Assembly: GCA_044892505.1 (NCBI GenBank)
Contig: CM097884.1
Span: forward strand, 141,298,001-141,362,000
Length of the DNA: 64,000 nucleotides
Direction: 5' to 3'
Origin: Schmidtea nova
Taxonomy: Eukaryota
How positions within the stretch are numbered: the stretch's first letter is position 1; every line of letters begins with the position of its first letter. A program made the translations under genes and the position numbers. Below the pieces are notes generated by a model that was not told the origin of the DNA, searched no databases, and saw only the letters and a list, made by a program, of their open reading frames with translations. Positions 6,201 through 61,681 of the stretch are shown here, piece after piece.

Positions 6201-7489
6201 ACAGATAGATAGAAAATTGTGATCAAGAACAAAACTGATGGCAAATGAAATTATGAAGGAAACAGAGTTAGGAAAGGGTACAGTTAGATTCGAAATGCAG
6301 AATGTGCAAATTTGATAAAAATTAATAGGTGGTTAATTTATCGAAATTGAATGTGGTAAACGGGACAGGAATAGATTAGCTAATGACGAAGAACATAGTT
6401 GATTAGGAATCGGTCAAAAAATAATTTTGAAATGGTCGAAAAGCATGCAAATGCATAAAAACAGAAAATTGTTAACTAATTAATTAATTGACTAATTGAA
6501 AACCCGAGCTAATGGAGAACCCGAGAGATGAAGAAAACCCGAGTTTGGCAAACAAGGAGAGTAAACAAAGTGGAATTTGGAAGGCCATTATCTCGACAGC
6601 ATGAGTAATGGGAATAACCATAATTGGTTTTTACGAAAGGATAACAAAAGAACGTAACTAATAATTATTAGTTCTCAAACGATATTCAAGAAAACCGATT
6701 GTCAAAGTATTGTCAAACAGAGGCGATTTGACCAAAAAACTAAATAATCAAAATAATTATTTTAGTACATAAGAAAAGTCAAAATAGAAAACAATTGGTA
6801 TTTTGGTTTAGTTAGGGAGAAGAAGCCAAGATTAGGTTAAAGGTATCATAGTTAGAAGGAATAGGAAAGCAAAGCGATTTACAAAGCGATCAAATAAAAG
6901 ACTAAAGAGAAAAAGAGTAAAGAAATTTATAAAGAGCTGAATCAAGAGAAAACTAAATTGTTAAAGAAAAAGAGTTCAATCCAGAGGAGCTAATATACAA
7001 GGTGATCTGTTATAAAGCCCACAAGTCAATACATCCAATGACGGAGATCGATCGAATAATTGGAACGTTATATCATTGTTGTGAATTGTAAAATGATTTT
7101 ATTAATTTAAAACAAATATATGTTGGGAGTGTTATTAGTTATTTATTTGTTTGAACACGATGAGTCAGACACCAACGATTATTAACTGGTTTAATTAAAA
7201 TCCAATAATTAAACAGATTAATTTGAGGAGTCTGAAAAGATAATGAAGAGTGCTGAGAAAATATTGAAATAAACTCTAGTCAAACAAAACGTACCAGAAG
7301 AGTCTATTACCCTTTGGGTTATACGACTTAACGTGAATCAAAGCGAGAACAGGAGAAAGTGCAAATTATTGAGTGTAAATTGTATTGATTAAAACAAGTT
7401 TACTTCAAAGTATTTTTATTTATTTATTTTAAATTACCACAGTAGATTTTCATCTGAATTTAGAACTATGAAACAATTAGTTAACAACA

Positions 7490-8200: not shown

Positions 8201-9464
8201 CCATGCGGTGACACGCGTACCAACTTACGCACACATGGTAACTCATTTACATAATAACTATCACCTCCAATAAAATTAAAATATGATTTCGAATTATTAA
8301 AATTATTTATTAATAATTTGAATTGCAAAATATAACAAATAATACATTTATTTAAAATTATTTATTTAGTAAACATTACATTAATTTACAATTTAAATAT
8401 AATTATTTAACATTTTAAACAATTCAAAGCATTAATAAAACAATTTTTATAAGAAGTGAAAATGATCACGATATAGGCATGAAATATTGTCAGGAAATTT
8501 TCGAGCTTCTTTTAATGTATATATTTGATTATTCTCAAATTTGGGAAATATTTTTTCAAAATAATAAGTTTATCATAATCACTGACATAGAAAATTGCAC
8601 TAGTATCTTTAATATCGTTCAAAATACACGTTGGACAATACTAATCTTCTTCCTCATACCATTCTAATCAATCAGGAAATTTAACTCCTGCCTAAAATGG
8701 TAAATCATTATATATCCAATACTTTGGGCTTAAAATATTATTTACATTCATAATACACAATTCGTTAATAATTAACCTACCTGCATTATCATTATAACCA
8801 TAAATATCAATAAAATAACAAGTCATTTTTTATAAAAAACATTTATTAAACAACACTGTTTATAGACATAACATAGAATTTAGCCATGCAAGACAATGTT
8901 GACCACAAGTAATTGTCAGTGGATTCTTATACCAAATTCTATTATATGCAATAAGTTTACCTATTGTTTGTATAACAAACAAAAAATTAGTAAAGCGCTC
9001 TTATTTTCTAACTTTGATAAGGCTCCTGAAATGTATTATGCAAAATAAATTCCACTCTTTATATCATTTGTTGACTTTAACGTCTCAATTCTTAGCTTCC
9101 AGTGATGTGTTTTATTACTTGTTGGATGTTTTTAGGTCTAACCTCATGAATTGATTTAAATTCAATCATAAATTATTTAAATAATATGCATAGATTTTTT
9201 CAATATAAAATAATCACTAACAAGAATTTCTTTTTTCATAGACATTTTTAAAAACAAATTTGCAACATTTACGTGCAAATATTTAAACAAGTCAGTTTCA
9301 TTTTAATAATATTAATATATTTTTAAATTTAAAATTTTATATTACTTTAATTATATTACTTTAATTACTTTCATTTTTTAAGGTCCTCATTATTTGTCAA
9401 CTTGAAAATTTATGATTATTTATAAAATGAAACAAGAAATATTTATTAAAAATTTGATTGATGG

Positions 9465-13156: not shown

Positions 13157-14185
13157 CCTAGTTAAATTAAATAATTTTGCATATAAAGTATTTAATTAGC
13201 CTTTAATAAAAATTAAATTTTCATTTAAAAAGTACCTAATTTTAATTTAAATATTTTTCATATATTAAGTACTTAATTTTGCCGTAAATAAAAATATTTT
13301 CATATATGACCTATTTAATTTGATAATAAATATTTAATTTCTCTTAATATGACTTACTTTATTTGACCTTAAATTGTTCGTAAATTATAATTTTTCATAT
13401 ATGACCTACTTAATTCTGCCTTAAATAAAAATATAAAGTATTTAATTTTGCCTTACATAAAAATATTTTCATATATGACCTACTTTATTTAAATTAAATA
13501 AAAATAATTGCATATATAAGTACTTAATTTGACTTTAAATAAAAATATTTTTTTTGTATTAAATACTTAATTTTGCCTTAAATAATATCTAATTTTCATA
13601 TATGACCTACTTAATTTAACTTTAATAAAATATATTTTTCAAATATGTTCAAATAGTACCTAATTTTACTTTAAATTAAATATTTAAATATATGACCTAC
13701 TTAATTAAAAATATTTCATATATGACCTACTTAATTTAATTTAAATAATATCTAATTTTCATATAAAAAGTACCTAATTTTACTTTAAATTAAATATTTA
13801 AATATATGACCTACTTTATTTGACTTTAATAATATCTATTTTTCATACAAAAAGTACCTAATTTTAGTTTAAATTAAATGTTTAAATATATGGCATACTT
13901 TATTTGACCTTAAATTGTCCTTAAATTATAATATTTTAATTTTAAATATATGACCTACTTTATTTGACCTTAAATTCACATTAAAAATGACCCTAAAGTG
14001 TCCTTAAATCGACATTGACCTACTTTTTTGTCCTTAAAGTGTCCTAAAACCAAAATTTTGACCTTAATTTTACCTTAAGCGAAACATTTGACCTTAAAAT
14101 GACCTTAAATTGACCTACAAAAAAAAAGTTTTCTTGGGGGTTATGGGGATTTGACCTTTATATGACGGGGACACATCCTACTACT
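12990..14185 (-). mobile_element. Polinton/Maverick-type terminal repeat: ATATGACCTAC / TTTGACCTT arrays ending in CTACTACT
   Basis: Minus strand reads AGTAGTAGGATGTGTCCCC. AG/AGT terminal microrepeats and repeat-rich TIRs are established Polinton features. Confidence 0.7.
13122..13154. repeat. (TA)n microsatellite
   Basis: Directly visible. Confidence 0.95.
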
Positions 14186-14790
14186 GATATGGGAGCAATT
14201 CAATGATAAATATTTAGTTAAATCTTCAAGTTGTACTATATTCAAATCATTTGCAAATGTAAATGTTTCTTCAATTTTGGCATAATAAGATATTGTCATC
14301 TTAATATCTTTTTTCTAATAACTATTCCGTTCAAAAAACACGAACTTTAATTGATATTCTTTAAATGTACTTACAATTTAAAGTTGATTACTTTCCATCC
14401 GTTTTGCTTCTTCAATATATTCAAATGTAATTGCATATAGAGGAAAATCACAATTAATATTTAGACATCCATTGTTGAAATACATAATACAATGAGCATT
14501 CAAATTTTGGTTAGAAATAGTATAAATTCTTTCAAAATTGTTGATGATGAATAGACCACAACATATTTTTGATTCATTTCTTTTGTAATGAAATTATCAT
14601 TGACTATAAAATGGAAAAGTGTTGTACATAAACATGAAATCTTGCAATGCAACTTCCCAATTACCGTGTAAATAAATCGGATTTTGAAGATTGATTATAG
14701 ACTTGCTAGCCTGATTGTTGCAATGAATTATTGGACAACTATTAATTGGTTAAATAGTATAAAAATTAATTTTACTAGATTTTTTGCTGA
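14186..14790 (-). pseudogene. Polinton minor capsid (penton-like) protein, decayed
   Basis: FYTI*PINSC...LQNPIYLHGNWEVALQDFMF resembles the Polinton minor-capsid N-terminal motif. It lies directly downstream of the integrase fragment. Confidence 0.6.
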
Positions 14791-15295
14791 TATCCATGAT
14801 GGTTTTAATGTCAATGCCGCTTTAAATAGTATTGTTTATTCATACCCACCGTTTTTTCCCGTATTTTCTGAATTCTAAATACAGTTAGCGGGAGAATAAC
14901 TTGTAATTATTGCTCATAAAGTTTCCCATTGACTTCATTATTGTCAGAGTCAGAAATAACATACATGAAAGGATCTTGACTAGTATTAATTTTCGATATT
15001 TGAAATACCTCATCACTCCAATTACTATCAAAATTCTTTATGAATGGTAAAGCACTAATTTTACTAATTGGGACATGGTTTCTTTAATGTTTTTACTTGA
15101 CAAGACATCTTTCCAGTATTTTTCGCTGAAACATCAACCGGTCTCAATCCATTTATATTTAGATACGGAGAATGATTATAACTATGAATTATTTTCGGTA
15201 ATATTTTGACCCATGTTTTATTACCCTGGTACACAAAATACTTTTTGAGTCGATCTCGTAATGTTCGATTAAATCCTTCAACATAAGCTGCTTAA
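14790..15295 (-). pseudogene. Polinton integrase, C-terminal half
   Basis: KAAYVEGFNRTLRDRLKKYF..WVKILPKIIHSYNHS..NWSDEVFQI..EVNGKLYEQ, followed by a chromo-like tail. Confidence 0.85.
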
Positions 15296-48300: not shown

Positions 48301-49169
48301 ATTTTTCATTATTTTATGACAATTCTTTTTGGGCTGGTGAAATCAAAAATAAATTTTGTGTGAATTTATCAAAAATTAATATATACAAAAGGGAACAACT
48401 TTAAAAACGCACAATAAAGCATTACGCAGTAGAATAACGCAAAAGAAAATAAAACAGTAAAGTACAATAGTGATCATACGAACCGCATTTTATAAGTCGG
48501 TAGAGATAGGGCTCAAACGATAGAAAATAGGCATCTCAAAAGAGAGCTCACAATTTGAGTGCAGGTCGCATTTACATACGAAGGACAGCACGAGAATTGA
48601 ATGGAGAAGATCATGATCGAAGAATAAAATTGATATCAGAATAAAGAAAATAATTTATTAAAAATTATGGAAAAAATCCCAATTGAAATATCGTAAAAAT
48701 AACAGGGATAGGAATAAAATAGAATCAAGTTAAATTTGATTGTTTTAATCAATCAATTAATATACAAAAACAATGGATAAACATATCATTTAACGGAATT
48801 AAAAAGAAATATTTTAGAAATAAATAAATTGAATTATAAAATTAAATTTACAAATAATAAATAAATAATCATTTATTAAAAACAATAAGTGAGATTAATT
48901 GTAAAAAAATTGATTGAATAATGATAACATGTGTAGGCGTCAGTAGATTTAATATAAATAGACGCAAAAATCACAATGAGTTAGTTAGTTTGTAGTCGCG
49001 TGGATGAGTAGATTTGTTTTGTAATTGGTAAAGAATATTGAATTTGACTATGTTTATTGTAAAGTTGTATATTTAAAATTGAAATTTTAGATTTTGGCTA
49101 TTTGCTGGTAAATCCTCATAAGCACCGGGTAAAAATCCATAAGTGCACATCCCGACAGTCTAACGACCC

Positions 49170-49900
49170 GACGGACGCTAAGTTAGATTCATATAACTAG
49201 TACTACAATTATAAATTTCAAAATCCTGAGAATATCTTTCACGATAATCAATTCCTTTCGATAAAGTTAATGATTTAACATTAAAGTGATCATATATAGA
49301 ATAAGTTTCTGTAAATGAACCAGTATGTCCTTTATTTCCTTCAAATTCAACAAGAATAAAGTTTGGTAAACGCCTATCACCAAATATTTGTTCCTTATAA
49401 AACGAGGAAGATCCAATCGGTAATGAAAATTCTACAACTTTGCTTCTTAAAGGATAAATTGCATTTATTGTACTAAGTCCAATTTGATGCCCTGCTAAAA
49501 CTGATGGTTAACACGAACTCTTCGAACTAATAATTTTGCGTCTAAAATTCAATTAAAGGTTCAATCTTTGTACACGTTAAACTATTAGTTGGGTTAGATC
49601 TTATCAACTTAATTTGAACACTGACATCAGGTAATAAATACTTTGGTTGTTCCATAAAATCGAAATGCAAAGGAGAACATAATGAAAAATTTTTTGATTT
49701 GGCAATCCACATTTTTCTTGTTTGTTTATGATTATTATACCCTAGTGTACTTAAAAAAGTATGTTTCGTGTCCTTATTAGTAGAAGGCTATGAGCCGACT
49801 GAACCACTTCCCCATGAGTTCATTACGTAATAGATCGGACTTTGTATATCACACATGCTTACATAATCATTACATAATATTCTGGTACCTGTTTTTACGT
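49170..49900 (-). pseudogene. Polinton major capsid protein (double jelly-roll), fragment
   Basis: KNFSLCSPLHFDFMEQPKYLLPDVSVQIKLIRS...LAGHQIGL..AIYPLRSKVVEFSLPIG..LPNFILV..HFNV. Confidence 0.8.
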
Positions 49901-50181: not shown

Positions 50182-50919
50182 TTTATATTATGTAACCATA
50201 GTTTCAAAGAATTATTACCAAGAATTATTTCCCAAATTATAAAAACAGACTGAAACTAATCTGTACAATATATAACTTAATAAATGAAAACAATAAAAAA
50301 CAAAGTTTTAACAACAAATTTTGTTCAATAAAACTGTTTCTTTTTCAGTTGGATTTTGAAATTGTTGATCTGTATTGATTCTTGGATCGGTATGTTGAAA
50401 TATAACCAAGTCACCTCCCATATAATGGCCATATGCCAAGCTTTTTTTTTGCTACCCATTTCCATTTATCATCTGCGTTTTTCAGTGTAGTGAGATTCAT
50501 AACCAAGGCATTTGACGTAATATTGTTTATTTTTACTTGCAGTTTTAGTTTTTAAAATATTTTCAATTCTAAAGACCAATAGTTGAGAAATAATTTGTAA
50601 TTGGCTCCTATTTATTCGCTATGTATTTTTTACTAAACGCTATGTATTTTATTAGTGCCTTTATGTATTTTTTCTAAGTAAATATTTATAAAATGCTAAG
50701 TATTATATTAATTATATAAGTAAAAAAATAGAATTCATTAGGTATTTAATTATTTTATTATAGGTAATGTTAAGTTTATCAAAAGAGATAGACATAATTT
50801 GAATTTTTATTTATTACAATTATCTACTTATATAAACAAATTTTACTTGTTTATATATATTTTAAATAAGTTTGGAATTAATTAACAAAATGAGTTAATT
50901 AAATCCAACATAACTCCCC

Positions 50920-52557
50920 TCAAAGATTGGGTTCCGGCTCTATTGTTGCTCGCAGTCGATCAGCAGACACGATTTTATTTTTGTCGTTTATTGATATTTT
51001 GAATGTCTTGAGGTCTGGCGATCTTTCCACTACTTTAAACGGACCATCATATGGAAGATCGAGCCCTTTGGTGATTGGCTTCTGTAACCACACCCTGGTG
51101 CATGTGGCCAGTTCTTTCTGTATGAAACTGTTTTGTTTTGAATCTATCTTCTTTTCTTTTGGTATGGGATTGTAGATGGTTGGGATATTGGATTCTTCTT
51201 CGTCAACTTCTGATGTTATGATCGATAAATCGCCAGGTAATCTGAGTTTCGTTCCAAACACGAGTTCAGCTGGTGATGGTGAGTTATCTGAGGTGCAACA
51301 GCTGCGTAAACCTAGTAGTACTGTCGGGAGATCATGAGCCCACGTTTTATTTGCGTCTGCCGCATGAGCCTTGAGCGAGTTCTTGAGACTTCTATGCCAT
51401 CTTTCTACCTTCCCATTGCATTGTGGATGGTATGCTGTGGTTCGTCTATGTTCAATGCCCATATTTCTGCAAAAATTGTTAAATAAGGTAGATTCAAATT
51501 GCAACCCTTGATCACTGATGATAACTTCAGGTACACCGTATCTACTTATCCATTCTCTATTCAGTATTGTTACCACGTTAGAACTTGAGATTTCGTTAAT
51601 TGGAATGGCTTCCCCCCACGACGTTGATCTATCAATCATTGTAAGCATGAATCTCTTATTGCTTACTGGGGGTAATGGTCCTACGAGATCAATGTGAATG
51701 GTTTTGAATCGCCCAGTTGTTGGAATATCCATGAGAGGGGTCTTAGTATGACGGCTTATCTTTGATTGTTGACATTTCTGACACTGACGATTCCAAGTTC
51801 TAATATCAGATCGCATTTTTGGCCAAACATATCTTGATGCTAATAATCGCATCATTGGTTTGTAACCAGGATGTGAGATGTTGTGTAGCCTTTGAAATTC
51901 CTGGAATCTGAGTGATGTAGGAAGGATGATTCTCGGCTTCACCAGACTGATATCTACAAGGATACCATCTTTAGATTCACATAGATCCAGTGAAGTCATC
52001 TTTAGGTTTGCTAATAACTTGTCGGACTTTTGTTCTGTTAGGAGCTTTGCATTATCAAAGGTATTGATTGCTTCAATCTGGATCATGTCTATCTCCATAG
52101 AATGTTGTCTTGATAGAAGGTCAGCAGTTGCATTCTCTTTACCTTTAATATATTCGATCTTGAAGGTAAACTGAGAGAGATGTTCAATGATTCTCCATTG
52201 TCTTGTAGATGGCTCTTTCATCGACATTATGTGAATGAGTGGCTTGTGGTCAGTATTTATTGTGAATGAAGAGGCTAGGAGATAGTGTTTGAAGTGTTTC
52301 GTTGCAAGTTGTATTGCCAGAAGTTCCCTGTCAAATGTCGAATATTTTATTTCGGATTTGGATAGCTTCTGAGAATAAAATGCGATTGGTATTAAACGAT
52401 TTTCTGTATCTGTTTGATTTAGGCTTGCTCCAACGGCTACTGATGATGCATCCGTGCATAGTGTGAATGGCCTGGATGGGTCTGGATATCCAGTAGGCAC
52501 TGCTCTGCATAGGGCTGCTTTAGCTTGTTCAAATGCTCTATCATGGATTTCGTTCCA
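50920..52557 (-). CDS. Gypsy RNase H-integrase open frame, with no ATG upstream of RNase H
   Basis: WNEIHDRAFEQAK, TDASSVAVG, TDHKPL, ADLLSR, HHCC, HIDLVGP, SDQG and NGKVERWHR. Confidence 0.9.
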   Translation of the reverse strand, partial: WNEIHDRAFEQAKAALCRAVPTGYPDPSRPFTLCTDASSVAVGASLNQTDTENRLIPIAFYSQKLSKSEIKYSTFDRELLAIQLATKHFKHYLLASSFTINTDHKPLIHIMSMKEPSTRQWRIIEHLSQFTFKIEYIKGKENATADLLSRQHSMEIDMIQIEAINTFDNAKLLTEQKSDKLLANLKMTSLDLCESKDGILVDISLVKPRIILPTSLRFQEFQRLHNISHPGYKPMMRLLASRYVWPKMRSDIRTWNRQCQKCQQSKISRHTKTPLMDIPTTGRFKTIHIDLVGPLPPVSNKRFMLTMIDRSTSWGEAIPINEISSSNVVTILNREWISRYGVPEVIISDQGLQFESTLFNNFCRNMGIEHRRTTAYHPQCNGKVERWHRSLKNSLKAHAADANKTWAHDLPTVLLGLRSCCTSDNSPSPAELVFGTKLRLPGDLSIITSEVDEEESNIPTIYNPIPKEKKIDSKQNSFIQKELATCTRVWLQKPITKGLDLPYDGPFKVVERSPDLKTFKISINDKNKIVSADRLRATIEPEPNL

Positions 52558-52637
52558 AACACGAGTTCAGCTGGTGATGGTGAGTTATCTGAGGTGCAAC
52601 AGCTGCGTAAACCTAGTAGTACTGTCGGGAGATCATG

Positions 52638-52655
52638 ATCCCACTTCTGACACCA
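52638..52655 (-). promoter_or_regulatory. Primer binding site for tRNA-Leu
   Basis: TGGTGTCAGAAGTGGGAT is complementary to the conserved eukaryotic tRNA-Leu(CAG/CAA) 3' end AUCCCACUUCUGACACCA. Confidence 0.88.
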
Positions 52656-52954
52656 TTGTTAAGTTTATCAAAAGAGATAGACATAATTTGAATTTTTATT
52701 TATTACAATTATCTACTTATATAAACAAATTTTACTTGTTTATATATATTTTAAATAAGTTTGGAATTAATTAACAAAATGAGTTAATTAAATCCAACAG
52801 GTAATATTTTTAATTTTTATAAGTATAAAAATACAAAAACTAAGTAAAACAATGAAAAATTCATAAGAATAAACAAAAAGTGACACAATAAAAAAATCCA
52901 TAAAAATAGAAAGACTATTTCACAAAGACTATTAAAAAAATATTTGAAATTATT

Positions 52955-53839
52955 GTTTTAAAAAGGCTTTTTTAGCTTTAGTTGGTCTTCCTCTTGGTAG
53001 TTTACTTCCAATAGAAGTATTCTTAGCTACTGCCAGTACTTTGCAATATTTAAATCTGATTGAAATGTCGACAACATGCTTGCAAATAAATTTTTTTTAA
53101 ATGCTGGACAATTGCACTGACCGTCGGCCCAATTGGCTTTATCTTTTGGTAAATTATTGCGCCAAACAGTAAAAGCTCGCTTCGTAAATTGATCGAATGT
53201 TGTCCAGCGCATTTTTTCAACTTTGTCAATGTCTTCTTGAGTTATAGTTGCGTCACTAGCTGAAACATAGTAGTTTGTCGACTGTTCTTGGGGCACTGAA
53301 AGAATTGCTTTGCTTTCTTTAGCCCATTGATAAGACTGTGTCCATAATGCTGTGTCGATTGATTGTTTTGTAATAAACTCCTTCAGACTTCGAGAATATG
53401 CTAGTGACCACTTTTTAACAATATCTAAAGCTTGTTTGCTAAATCTAGATAATGGCGTGCGCTCTCTAATAGTTTCTTCGTCTTTAAGAACTCGATTATT
53501 TGACTCTAGATTATTGTAAGTACTTGGCGTGAAGGGCATGTATCCTTCATACAAAGTATTGTGTGTCGTAAGCCACATCATATTCATATAGTCTAAAAAC
53601 TCAGTCGCTTTTTTTTGTCTCCATTTTTTAACAAATAGAGAACTTGCTTTTTCAAAAGAGTAACTCCATATCTTCTCTTCTTTAATTGCATTTTTTGCTT
53701 CTTCAGCCCTTTTAAATACTTTTTCATGAGTCCAAACTTTGGACACTTTTTTGGCTCGTGGTTTCTTTAAACTTGTAACTTCAACATAAAACTCAAGATC
53801 AGACTGATAATCTTCAACTTCTGCAAAATTATTAGCCAT
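52955..53839 (-). pseudogene. MULE transposase remnant with SWIM finger and RGRP tail; DDE core largely deleted
   Basis: PSTYNNLESNNRVLK, CNCPAFKKN then frameshifted CKHVV, and LPRGRPTKAKKA. Confidence 0.85.
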
Positions 53840-55379
53840 TATAAGTTCAGTATTTGTTTTAATTTTGTTTATAATAAATAAATATTTGGGCTTATAATTA
53901 TTCAGAAACTTGGATAATAAATTAAATCAGATCACATGAAAAAAAGACTTTAACAAAATGATTAGAGTTCTAAGACTTTACGTAAAAAAACATACCGCTT
54001 TATTGAAAGTTTGTAATAATTGTCGAAAAAAATAAGATCTAAGAACATCTTAGAAAAAATTAAGATTTATTGATGGATTTTATTAATTGACATATCGTTT
54101 ATTTTATTTTACTTATAACTTGTTTTCTTGACTTGGCATTTATTTATTTTACATAGTTTTTAATTAATTACTTAGCGAATGTATTAAATATCTAGAATTA
54201 ATTAATTAACATAGAAGTGTTTTACTCTACTGATACTGTGTATTTATCGACATAGAAAGTGTTTATAAAATACATAGCGTTTAGTAAAAAATACATAGCG
54301 AATAAATAGTTCTCTTTGTAATTCCTGTTTAAAGAATTTACCACTGATTTCGTTGTTTTCATAATCTTTAATAAAGTACATTAAAGGATTCTGTTTAATA
54401 TCAATCATCGCTCCAATTACTTTGGAAATTTTTATAAATGGAGAAGTACTAATTTGAACATGATCTTCTATTCTATATTTAGCTTTTTTAGATTTTTGGA
54501 CTTTACTCTTGATTTTGAAATTTTTCTATATCAACTGGTCTCAATCCATTTAATCCTCGAAGGGCGAATGATTGTAACTAAAAATAATTTTTGGTAAAAC
54601 ATTAATCCAAAGTTTTTTTCATTGATACCCAAAATATTTTTCAATAAATCTCTCAAATTACGATTAAATCTTTCTTCGTGTGCTGCTTTGTATTAAAAAA
54701 ATACCAAGTAATGATTCTTTAATTTTTTCTTTTACCTTACTATTATAAAATTCTTTACCTAAATTTTAATTAATTTATAAATTAAATAAAAAAATTTATC
54801 ATACCTAAATCGGTTTGTAAATATTTAGGACGACCATCGGCAAATAAAGAATCTATTGCTTCAGCCATTTCATCAGCAGATTTAGTTCTAGTTGGCACTG
54901 CACGTACATATCTACTAAAAACATCAATGCAAGTAAAGATATATTTATATCCTTTATTTATTTTAGAGTAAAGAATCATTTCCATCAAATCCATCTGCCA
55001 TAAATCATTGATACCAATTGTTTTGTATCTTCTTGTAGGAAATCTTTTCAACATTGGCTTATTTAAACTGTATGCCAATTGACTAGATAACAATTTTTTG
55101 GTTTCTTCCATTGAATTAGTTTTATCTTTTTGAAAGTTTTTCTTAAATCACCAAAACCATCTGGATCCTTTGGATTTGTCCATATTAAATTGAGATTTTT
55201 CTCTAATATTTTCTTTTTCAATATTTTCTTTATGGATAATTTACTTTTTTGATTAATGTTTCTTTCATTATTACAACAAGATGTTAGTATATTTAAGTCT
55301 AAATTATGTTTATCCGTTAATGAATTCTTGGTACCCATAAATAAGATACTGTTTTTAAAATACTTATGAATTTAATGAT

Positions 55380-59019: not shown

Positions 59020-59330
59020 ATCGATGAAATTATTTCATTTTGCTAATTTAAAATAGATATCTGCAGTTAAATTGTGTAAGAAGGGACAAAATGGGCATTA
59101 AACCTTCTATCGGTAGCCCTTGGACACCAGGAGATATTCGCTCAATCATAGTTTCGAATTTTCGACGCTCAGTGATTGCGAATACCCACCCATTTGTAGC
59201 ATTACCAACGTTACATTGTGACGGGCAACAAGATGGTTAATCTAATGTTTTGTATGTTGAGTTGTTGATGTGAGTCATAGTAACGTCAAGGTCATATTGA
59301 CGATCAACAACCCACCATGTTTTTGTAATA
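59020..59330 (-). pseudogene. Unassigned Polinton-associated ORF (homologues at 42870-43130 and 40980-41120)
   Basis: VGNATNGWVFAITERRKFETMIERI versus VGTVTNGCKFA..ETIIDRM. Confidence 0.5.
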
Positions 59331-59708
59331 CAAGTTTTTTAGTTTTATTTATATTTACATTTCTACGAACGACATTAGCAATAACTTCAAGTTAATCATC
59401 AATAACATATGAAGGAAAAGCTTGTAAAATATTCATTCTTTGATTATTAGATGTTTTCATTAAATCATTAAGATATGGAAAACTACGATCTAATCTAATT
59501 TTCATTATTATTTTTCAAAATTTACATTGTTTATAATTTGATACAATTATTTGTAGTTTTTAATAAGTTTTATTTTTCTTTTCAAATTTTACTTTACTTT
59601 TATGTGCATTTTTCTTTGTAAAATTATTCTTTGAAACCTTTTTTCGTTGCATTAAAACTTTTTTAAAAGCCATTTTAATTAATAAATTTAGTTATTTTAA
59701 CTTTGTTT

Positions 59709-60325
59709 TTAAACTGATACACCTTTCTCATTGAAAATATCTGATCTAATCCGTAAATCATCAGGACATTGTTGAGTAAAATCAAAAAAGGTATATATGG
59801 GGAGATTTTGTTGCATCTTGAAATGAATCTAATAAAAATTTTCTATCGTTAAGATAAGCTTGCCTTGCAAGAAAATTAAATATTGTTGCATTTCTAGTAT
59901 TTTTAAAAATAATCAAGTATTGAACATTCAAACTACGGGTTTGATGGTTTCCACGTTGATGAAATAAATTTTGTGTTATAAAAATAACTGTAACTCCAAG
60001 ATGTCTACTAATCTTTGTAAATAAATTGTTAAAATCATTTTCTTAATTTGCTTCTTGATACAAATCATCAATAATTATAATATCACCTTTAGATAATCTA
60101 GATGAACATTTTTTATCGAATTCATTTATAACTGGCATTTTTAATTTACACATTTTTTCTTGAGTATGACCCTGATCTTCATATGCTACTCTAATTCAAT
60201 ATAGTTTGTTGAATTTAAATTTAAACATGTTTGATTGCAATAAATTACAAAAAAATAAAGTTTTCCCTCTACCACTAGGTCCCACTACTTAATATACTGC
60301 ATCATTTCTTAATTCAATTTAAATT
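59709..60325 (-). pseudogene. Polinton packaging ATPase (A32/FtsK-like)
   Basis: Walker A VVGPSGRGKT, Walker B IIIIDDL, LFTKISRH, IFITQNLF and RSLNVQYLIIFKN. Confidence 0.93.
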
Positions 60326-60367: not shown

Positions 60368-60715
60368 ATGTTGAGAAATATCAATTGTAAAGGAAGATGT
60401 TCAGTCGATGAGATGAAATTTCCGATTGGAAAACCAAAACAAATAATTGATAGAAGTGGAAAATATCCAATTTTATTTTTCAAATCTGGAAAATGCAGAA
60501 TAATGGGGTGTAAAACACCACTCCAAAAAGAAGATTTAAAATTTACAAATTCAATAAATTACTGTGACTTGGTGGATTTTATAATTTATATAATTTACCA
60601 TGTAAAGTTGAATGCATATTTGAGCATGAAATATTTCCTGCGTTACGAATTCAAAAATATGATTCATTATTTTTTTTCTAGTGATTAAGTTGTGATACTT
60701 GGAATAAAACTTTAA
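60368..60715 (+). pseudogene. TBP-like (TATA-binding protein fold) gene with two repeats; second repeat frameshifted
   Basis: Repeat 1: LRNI..YPILFFKSGKCRIMGCK. Repeat 2, across frameshifts: IQ*ITVT..FEHEIFPALRI..FFSSD*VVILGIK. Confidence 0.7.
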
Positions 60716-61681
60716 ATTACGAAGAATTTGTAGAAAAAAATAAAGTTGAAATAATAAAATAAAAAGATAATTATGAAATAAAAATGTTATTAAAAATTAA
60801 ATTTTTATTTTATTAAATTTTTATTAAATTTTTATTATTATTATTATAAATAGGGTACATAATAACTGTAAGAATCACTATATGATACTACATAATAACT
60901 GCATGAAACAATGCTACATTGCGTAATAAATGTATAAATCAATATACAATATTCCATAATAAATTTATATTAATGTTAGATCATAAATATATAGATTTAT
61001 AAAAATCTTATACAATTTCTATATATTTATGTGAAAATTATATAATAAAAGGATAATTATGTAATTTTCCAAAGTTTTTATAAAATTACGTAATTTCCAT
61101 GCATAAATTGCATCATTTTCAAAAAAAGGATTAGAGGGGATTAGTAAGTAGACCTTTGTACTTTAACTTACCTTAAAATAAAAATATAATAATGACGTTA
61201 TCGCCTGTGTATGTGCAAAAAAATAAGATAGGGGCTATCGCAAGAAAAAAGAAATGAGGTACCTCAAAAAAAGAGAGGTCCCCTAGGGGGTCACTAGATT
61301 TTGAATGGTTATGACTCATCAATTTCGTTATTTCCTTTGTTCCCGGTCCACACTTCTCCCTACTAAATAAGTTAATTACAGTCCATCTACAACTTTAGAT
61401 TTATATATAATATCAACTAAATGATGTTTCAATTCGTCGGATTTATTTGTTATATCTATTACGCATTTTCATCATATTAATTGATAACCCCGGATTTTTT
61501 TACTCAGATTTGGACATGTTACAAATGCGCAGAGGGAGGTCTAAAGGGTAAAAATTAAGATCGTCAAGATTATATGATTTTGTTCTGTTTCTGTTACCCG
61601 TAACTTCATTATATTTCAAAATAGCTAAAATGCTATAAGTGAAACAAAGATTGTCACATTTAAATATGTTGACATTTAAAT

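What the first reader, a model, noticed from the sequence alone, without database searches (positions are those of the whole stretch)
54759..54804. Host-sized spliceosomal intron inside the Polinton integrase TDxG-EF motif
Seen: a 46-nt AT-rich GTATGA...TTTAG segment whose removal gives LQTDLG^KEFYNSKVK. The unspliced frame stops immediately. Its size matches the 45-56-nt FANK1 introns, and both junctions share the 9-mer ATTTAGGTA. Inference: a virus-like element acquired a host-type intron, possibly by duplication or insertion at an AG|GT proto-splice site. That would make integration depend on host splicing and could be a regulatory switch.
Basis: partly seen in the sequence, partly recalled or inferred. 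Interest (0 to 1): 0.7.

Follow-up and report, generated by a model that had tools for sequence, protein, structure and literature searches.

The report
Spliced integrase in an amplified Polinton
A virus-like jumping element with more than 10,000 copies in this animal genome has its integrase gene split by a tiny AT-rich segment that is likely an ordinary intron, so the element likely depends on the host's splicing machinery, although such elements are described in the papers read as intron-free.

Summary
The 46-nt GT..AG segment is real and is not a quirk of this decayed copy. In the host genome 10,501 Polinton integrase copies carry an insert at this codon, 10,220 of them with GT..AG ends; 164 lack it. 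Sampled inserts are 39-47 nt, mostly not a multiple of three. The splice ends are fixed while the interior is free, and both exons are under purifying selection (dN/dS 0.15 and 0.11), so splicing is strongly implied. No RNA reads were obtained. Intron-bearing integrases form one clade (100/99). The intronless family and 39 of 39 scorable metagenomic or viral relatives lie outside it or lack the insert, which points to a single gain. The protease gene has an older intron just after its ATG (7,373 copies), shared with six metagenomic elements. The 9-mer is explained by codons plus splice consensus, and a duplication test was negative. Nothing supports a regulatory switch. The papers read call Maverick core genes intronless, but this scan has already noted intron-bearing Polintons in other genomes. 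Verdict: new variant of a known kind.

The parts
54759..54804 (-). 46-nt GT..AG phase-1 intron in the Gly codon two residues after the second catalytic Asp of the integrase
   Evidence: the motif aligns to HSDQG of a solved integrase core, 3dlr
54805..55203 (-). Integrase exon 1 remnant holding the first two catalytic Asp; one frame break near 55120
   Evidence: PF00665 E 7.5e-9; tblastn pieces
54316..54758 (-). Integrase exon 2 remnant, broken by stops and frame breaks (open for only 30 codons)
50608..54309 (.). Inserted element with 45-nt perfect inverted ends that separates the integrase tail from the rest; holds a gypsy-type pol fragment (50920-52566)
   Evidence: inverted repeat I1; Pfam RT_RNaseH, Integrase_H2C2 and rve
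50493..50603 (-). Integrase C-terminal remnant
   Evidence: tblastn E 2e-8
59700..60318 (-). Packaging ATPase remnant
   Evidence: 68-72% to a natural copy; that family hits Pox_A32 PF04665
55424..55516 (-). 3' piece of a protein X/mu-like ORF (5' piece at 59317-59487)
   Evidence: PF05829 on a related copy
60368..60669 (+). TBP-like ORF remnant
   Evidence: PF00352 E 8e-17 on a related copy
49166..49778 (-). Major-capsid-like remnant
   Evidence: Atlas look-alikes at 0.97, PF21738 DJR-like in 14-15% of cluster members
44572..48321 (-). Protein-primed PolB remnant, many breaks
   Evidence: Atlas PF03175 clusters at 0.97 for a related copy
35434..35478 (-). Candidate 45-nt host intron used for size comparison (others: 35277-35358, 82 nt; 39858-39908, 51 nt)
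   Evidence: picked by eye from GT..AG candidates that keep the frame

Best explanation
The segment is likely an ordinary, constitutively spliced U2-type intron that was likely gained once by the ancestor of this genome's dominant Polinton integrase clade and then copied with the element, so active elements would need the host spliceosome to join the two catalytic aspartates (exon 1) to the catalytic glutamate and the C-terminal part (exon 2). Shown: the insert, its position, fixed ends, free interior, copy number, selection on both exons and clade pattern. Inferred: actual splicing, single gain, transcription by host RNA polymerase II in the nucleus. It is likely the younger of at least two intron gains in the lineage; the protease intron is shared more widely. 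The window's copy is a fossil that inherited the intron.
For: (1) 10,501 copies have a 32-60-nt insert at this codon, 10,220 (97.3%) with GT..AG; 164 lack it; controls 0. (2) Among 39 distinct inserts from 60 copies: GT 39/39, +3A 38/39, +5G 28/39, -5T 39/39, TAG 39/39, GC 8.6%. The interior was above shuffle level in only 1 of 21 family pairs, the two closest. (3) In 30 position-ordered copies 26 inserts are not a multiple of three and only 2 are in frame without a stop. Of 20 with both exons fully open, 19 cannot be read through. (4) Median dN/dS between intron-bearing families is 0.15 (exon 1) and 0.11 (exon 2), 35 pairs each (9 representatives; 1 of 36 pairs dropped as near-identical), with dS often above 1. 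No Met precedes the catalytic Glu in exon 2 in 9 of 9. (5) Ten intron-bearing copies plus two outside proteins that end just after QTDLG form one clade at 100/99 (18+2 rows at SH-aLRT 97). The intronless family of the same genome lies outside it. (6) The motif is unbroken in 120 of 120 listed homologous proteins and in 39 of 39 scorable of 44 metagenomic or viral loci. (7) A second intron follows ATG+2 nt in the protease: 7,373 copies, 30 of 30 fetched, 6 metagenomic elements; absent in 2 more distant ones.
Against: No RNA read across the junction was seen, so splicing is not shown directly. No spliced protein close to the intron clade was among the 120 listed hits (best identity 85% on exon 1 and 75% on exon 2). 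The 120 proteins are biased to open frames. The DNA of the two outside proteins that end after QTDLG was not seen, and the intron pattern found 0 matches in metagenome and viral contigs. The inserts are shorter than 13 of 14 sampled host short introns. 8 of 29 best protein-search copies have a 42- or 45-nt stop-free insert that could be read through. The outgroup was not one side of a branch in either tree.
Confidence: 0.8

Rival explanations
1. The intron is a regulated switch, like P-element IVS3: spliced in some cells and retained in others, where a truncated integrase or no protein results.
For: It sits inside the catalytic core, so retention would remove the catalytic Glu. It is at or below the low edge of host short-intron sizes. 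Somatic repression of IVS3 splicing is the precedent (search listing and start of abstract of PMC4647562).
Against: Splice signals are near consensus and the interior is unconserved. The first stop after retention falls anywhere from codon 3 to 20 or is absent, so no retained-intron product is conserved.
Confidence: 0.1
2. The intron was kept or favoured because spliced transcripts escape host surveillance of intronless RNA, which helped this clade amplify.
For: 10,501 intron-bearing against 164 intronless integrase sites. Introns counteract HUSH repression of transgenes in the human system (abstract of PMC8770142).
Against: This is one contrast of one clade against one family, so there is no replication. 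The intronless family lacks a polymerase ORF in the copy examined and still has the protease intron. Such a pathway was not looked for in this host, and the intron is tiny.
Confidence: 0.12
3. On origin only: the intron arose by tandem duplication of a stretch holding AG|GT, and the shared 9-mer is its trace.
For: 9-mer at both junctions. Nine or ten shared nt in 6 of 19 scorable copies of the window's subfamily and its sister. AG|GT at this site in 8 of 39 intronless relatives.
Against: The 9-mer is what Asp-Leu-Gly-Lys codons give beside the TTTAG and GTA consensus. 41 of 60 copies share only 2 nt. The interior matches the flanking exons no better than shuffles in 12 of 12 copies (mean z -0.39, lowest p 0.30). 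Saturation (dS above 1) could have erased a true signal.
Confidence: 0.2
4. The insert is not spliced: a chance insertion into dead or non-autonomous copies that borrow integrase from the intronless family, or a recoding event.
For: The window's copy is dead, an intronless family exists in the same genome, and no RNA evidence is in hand.
Against: Both exons are under purifying selection across families, GT/AG are fixed while length varies over all three frames, and there is no internal start. In the window's old subfamily, where selection has ended, the ends decay (12 of 19 intact).
Confidence: 0.03

Closest known systems
Polinton/Maverick elements of vertebrates and nematodes (PMC8097293; bioRxiv 10.1101/2022.07.12.499685)
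   Same: Integrase, pPolB, packaging ATPase, adenovirus-like protease and capsid-like genes, terminal inverted repeats and a 6-bp target-site duplication.
   Different: Those papers state that the core genes are intronless (passages); introns were seen only in cargo genes. Here the integrase and protease, and probably the PolB 5' end, carry short GT-AG introns. The elements also carry a TBP-like ORF.
Ginger1 DNA transposons (PMC2836005)
   Same: An integrase-type DDE gene interrupted by 1-4 mostly GT-AG introns (passages).
   Different: Ginger elements are small cut-and-paste elements; this integrase sits among polymerase and capsid genes.
Introners inside maverick-polinton-like proviruses of dinoflagellates (PMC11957031)
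   Same: Intron-like inserts inside Polinton-like elements (passages).
   Different: Those are mobile repeats, mostly acquired after integration. Here one position is inherited through a clade with a diverged interior; an introner origin was not shown.
Drosophila P element IVS3
   Same: A transposase made only after an intron is removed (search listing).
   Different: IVS3 splicing is regulated by a silencer; no sign of regulation was found here.
Nuclear DNA viruses with spliced genes: adenoviruses (PMC11304566) and mirusviruses (PMC12768974)
   Same: Viral core genes spliced by the host spliceosome, read as a sign of nuclear transcription (passages).
   Different: Different virus groups; adenoviruses have no integrase (recalled), and the introns here are single and very short.

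Membership tests
Polinton/Maverick | Retroviral-like DDE integrase | tested here: met
   PF00665; alignment to solved integrase cores
Polinton/Maverick | Protein-primed family B polymerase | tested here: met
   Atlas clusters with PF03175 at 0.96-0.97 for a related copy; weak PF03175 (E 0.005) and broken remnants in the window
Polinton/Maverick | Packaging ATPase and adenovirus-like protease | tested here: met
   PF04665 and PF00770 on related copies; ATPase remnant in the window, no protease remnant beside this integrase
Polinton/Maverick | Double jelly-roll major capsid protein | tested here: inconclusive
   No Pfam or PDB sequence hit; Atlas look-alikes at 0.97 with PF21738 in only 14-15% of members; not folded
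Polinton/Maverick | [quoted passage not shown] | tested here: met
   Seen for one broken intron-bearing element of about 18 kb and one palindromic element, both with AG..CT ends; not found for two other copies tried or for the window's copy
Polinton/Maverick | Intronless core genes (a described trait, not a formal criterion) | tested here: not met
   against the passages
U2 spliceosomal intron | GT..AG ends with donor and acceptor consensus | tested here: met
   97.3% genome-wide
U2 spliceosomal intron | Flanking exons in frame and under selection, interior free | tested here: met
U2 spliceosomal intron | Removed from the RNA | not tested
Introner (intron-generating transposon) | Same sequence repeated at unrelated gene positions, with terminal repeats or target duplication | tested here: inconclusive
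   Interior unconserved and junction repeat family-specific; no genome-wide search for the insert alone was run
P-element-type regulated intron | Tissue-specific retention with a conserved truncated product or silencer | tested here: inconclusive
   No conserved truncated product or interior motif; retention itself needs RNA

The most novel reading that the evidence does not exclude
A Polinton lineage has been domesticating itself to the host nucleus by stepwise intron gain (protease first, then integrase and the polymerase leader). The integrase intron is adaptive: it either marks the transcript as self and so enabled amplification beyond 10,000 copies, or gives the host a splicing handle on integration. 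The intronless palindromic family in the same genome would be a natural control.
Probability: 0.2. Interest if true: 0.85.

Novelty: new variant of a known kind. Interest (0 to 1): 0.52.

Why it matters
Papers read here treat Polinton/Maverick core genes as intronless and count only intronless ORFs as intact. If this holds, intron-blind screens would score whole active lineages as broken; here that would be about 98% of the integrase sites matched. It also gives an ordered series of intron gains with an intronless sister in the same genome. That makes two open questions testable: how virus-like elements gain introns, and whether splicing licenses or restrains them. Introns also imply nuclear, host-polymerase transcription of the integrase and protease.

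Tried and rejected
RNA evidence: no sequencing runs or reads were obtained, so splicing and retention remain open. The intron-junction pattern gave 0 matches in metagenome and viral contigs. A single-protein scan of viral contigs gave nothing, and an alignment scan gave one distant intronless locus. The first host-intron script returned nothing because of a bad option (redone). The intron-free protease pattern was wrongly designed and is uninformative. Redone it gave 9 matches against 5 for the control, and none of the 6 fetched matched the protease. Tandem-duplication origin: not supported. My interim reading that the 9-mer is unique to the window's copy (1 of 60) was corrected: it is shared within the subfamily. 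Trans-complementation by the intronless family was rejected on dN/dS. No terminal repeats were found for the window's copy. Kapitonov and Jurka 2006 was not held, so its statement is second-hand through PMC8097293; Pritham 2007 and Repbase entries were not seen and may annotate spliced Polinton genes. Passages of PMC8502044, bioRxiv 2023.08.22.554363, PMC6431247, PMC5718144, PMC12220804, PMC11296320, 10.64898/2026.07.28.741278 and 10.64898/2025.12.11.693146 held nothing on spliceosomal introns in Polinton core genes; no supplements were read. A search for Polinton with TBP was uninformative. The host taxon was not established by any search.

Full report
Observation. The segment is there as described: 46 nt, GTATGA..TTTAG, window 54759-54804 on the minus strand, after the first base of the Gly in QTDLG-KEF, with a 9-mer at both junctions. 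The unspliced frame stops after 7 codons. The upstream piece is an rve integrase core. In an intronless relative the motif aligns with HSDQG of a solved integrase core and VERFN with VERKN. The insert thus falls two residues after the second catalytic Asp and separates it from the catalytic Glu (the catalytic roles are recalled).

The window's copy. It is a fossil. Remnants follow the order seen in better-kept copies: TBP-like ORF, ATPase, protein X-like ORF, integrase, capsid-like gene, PolB. That all belong to one insertion is inferred from the order. Exon 2 is open for only 30 codons, and a 3.7-kb element with perfect 45-nt inverted ends sits in the integrase tail. Its nearest relatives are 83-90% identical and also broken; among 19 scorable copies of this group and its sister family, 12 keep both GT and AG.

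The family. The window lies in G000, a 1.25-Gb animal genome with 17,065 first-look candidates for this integrase. All 30 fetched protein hits, the window's own included, carry an insert at the same place. A pattern with the ends left free finds 10,501 sites, with GT..AG forced 10,220, and with no insert 164; reversed controls find 0. These are exact-pattern counts, so lower bounds. In 30 position-ordered copies the lengths are 40 (7), 41 (3), 42 (3), 43 (11), 44 (5) and 45 (1); 26 are not multiples of three and 2 are in frame without a stop. Twenty of the 30 have both exons fully open, and 19 of those cannot be read through. Against this, 8 of the 29 other top protein hits have a stop-free 42- or 45-nt insert, a set biased toward long open frames.

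Why it is likely spliced. Among 39 distinct inserts from 60 copies, GT, TAG and -5 T are invariant, +3 A is in 38 and +5 G in 28. The interiors are no more alike than shuffles in 20 of 21 family pairs. Between nine intron-bearing representatives, median dN/dS is 0.15 for exon 1 and 0.11 for exon 2 (35 pairs each; one near-identical pair dropped), with dS often above 1. Exon 2 has no Met before the catalytic Glu in 9 of 9. Exon 2 was therefore translated for a long time in families where only removal of the insert puts it in frame. No RNA reads were obtained, so this is inference. Fourteen short host myosin introns, found among AT-rich 34-120-nt candidates with ends possibly a few nt off, are 44-58 nt, median 51.5. 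Candidates in the window's ankyrin-repeat gene are 45, 51 and 82 nt. The Polinton intron is host-like but short.

Gain, not loss. The motif is unbroken in 120 of 120 listed homologues out of 2,584 (biased to open frames). It is also unbroken in all 39 of 44 metagenomic or viral loci that show it. In trees that did not use the insert, intron-bearing copies form one clade (SH-aLRT 97; 100/99), and the intronless G000 family lies outside. The outgroup was not cleanly one side of a branch, and four rows were under half filled. Two outside proteins, P0121 and P0122, end one to four residues after QTDLG and nest in that clade. This suggests the intron exists in other data sets, but their DNA was not seen and the intron pattern found nothing in the contig collections.

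Origin. The 9-mer is not good evidence of duplication. It is what Asp-Leu-Gly-Lys codons give next to the acceptor and donor consensus. It reaches 9-10 nt in 6 of 19 copies of the window's group but only 2 nt in 41 of 60 others, and the interior matches the flanks no better than shuffles in 12 of 12 copies. AG|GT occurs at this site in 8 of 39 intronless relatives, so insertion at a proto-splice site is possible; saturation prevents a verdict.

More introns. The protease gene has a 37-47-nt intron after ATG plus two bases. It was seen in 7 G000 loci (one with a decayed donor), including the family without the integrase intron, and in 6 metagenomic elements; two more distant elements start the protease directly. 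It is in 30 of 30 fetched copies of one family and at 7,373 sites genome-wide, while an intron-free pattern is at control level. On the integrase tree all elements known to have it fall inside a 32-row clade (100/99) and the two without it fall outside, so it is likely older than the integrase intron. One copy shows three phase-1 candidates (49, 47 and 189 nt) at the PolB 5' end with open pieces. A second family appears by eye to share the last position; this is weaker.

Mechanism. Likely: host RNA polymerase II transcribes the element in the nucleus and the major spliceosome removes the intron constitutively, giving a full DDE integrase; retention would give a dead fragment. A regulated switch is not excluded but has no support. 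The signals are strong, the interior is free, and the first stop after retention lies at codon 3 to 20 or is absent. A benefit through escape from surveillance of intronless RNA is a hypothesis from the human system (abstract of PMC8770142) resting on one unreplicated contrast.

What is known. [quoted passage not shown] The nematode Maverick preprint calls the core genes intronless and places introns in cargo. Introns are known in Ginger transposases, as introners in dinoflagellate proviruses, and in adenovirus and mirusvirus genes. Six searches listed no paper on inherited spliceosomal introns in Polinton core genes. The library lacks most subscription journals and Repbase, and no supplements were read. 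This scan holds eight earlier unchecked notes of intron-bearing Polintons in other genomes and none on this genome. Membership as a Polinton is met on integrase, PolB, ATPase, protease, inverted ends and 6-bp duplication, and is inconclusive on the capsid fold.

Verdict. Real, family-wide, a new variant of a known kind. What this case adds is scale, evidence of selection, an ordered pair of gains and an intronless sister in the same genome. Interest 0.52.

Noticed in passing
L081:7517 to L083:1752 (G000:C1, about 14.2 kb); many inverted pairs about 7,245 bp apart: The intronless-integrase family is a giant palindrome: ATPase, protein X-like ORF, integrase and capsid-like genes mirrored around a central protease. 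The arms are 99-100% identical, with AG..CT ends, a 6-bp target duplication and no polymerase ORF seen.
   Followed up: partly
L041, L045, L050, L082, L098, L103, L104, L109, L113, L116 (protease 5' end): Conserved short intron right after ATG plus two bases in the adenovirus-like protease, shared with metagenomic elements; 7,373 sites in G000.
   Followed up: yes
window 60368-60669; L042:1669-2187; L098, L103, L129: A TBP-like ORF (PF00352, E about 1e-17) travels with these Polintons, also in metagenomic relatives. One literature search on it was uninformative.
   Followed up: partly
L045:4394-4979; L050:5000-6480: Candidate phase-1 introns at the PolB 5' end, and a possible 5'-UTR intron in one family.
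   Followed up: partly
L006, L007, L014, L025, L026, L028-L030, L052, L058: Copies whose insert is 42 or 45 nt without a stop, so an unspliced message would give a 14-15-residue insertion beside the active site.
   Followed up: no
window 50608-54309: Young-looking element with 45-nt perfect inverted ends inside the integrase tail. It carries a gypsy pol fragment and a 299-aa frame (53027-53926) with no convincing Pfam hit.
   Followed up: partly
window 8410-8973, 13962-15291, 43693-44403, 2075-2519, 61379-61673: Fragments of further Polinton copies (integrase exon 2, minor-capsid-like, protease, PolB and a terminal repeat) scattered through the window.
   Followed up: no
L103:225-722; L104:2-1260: Metagenomic relatives have extra ORFs beside the core module that look by eye like a ubiquitin-conjugating enzyme, a dual-specificity phosphatase and an MraY-like membrane protein (labels recalled, not tested).
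   Followed up: no
window 35277-35478 and 39674-40087: Exons of an ankyrin-repeat host gene with 45-, 51- and 82-nt candidate introns; the name FANK1 was not tested.
   Followed up: partly
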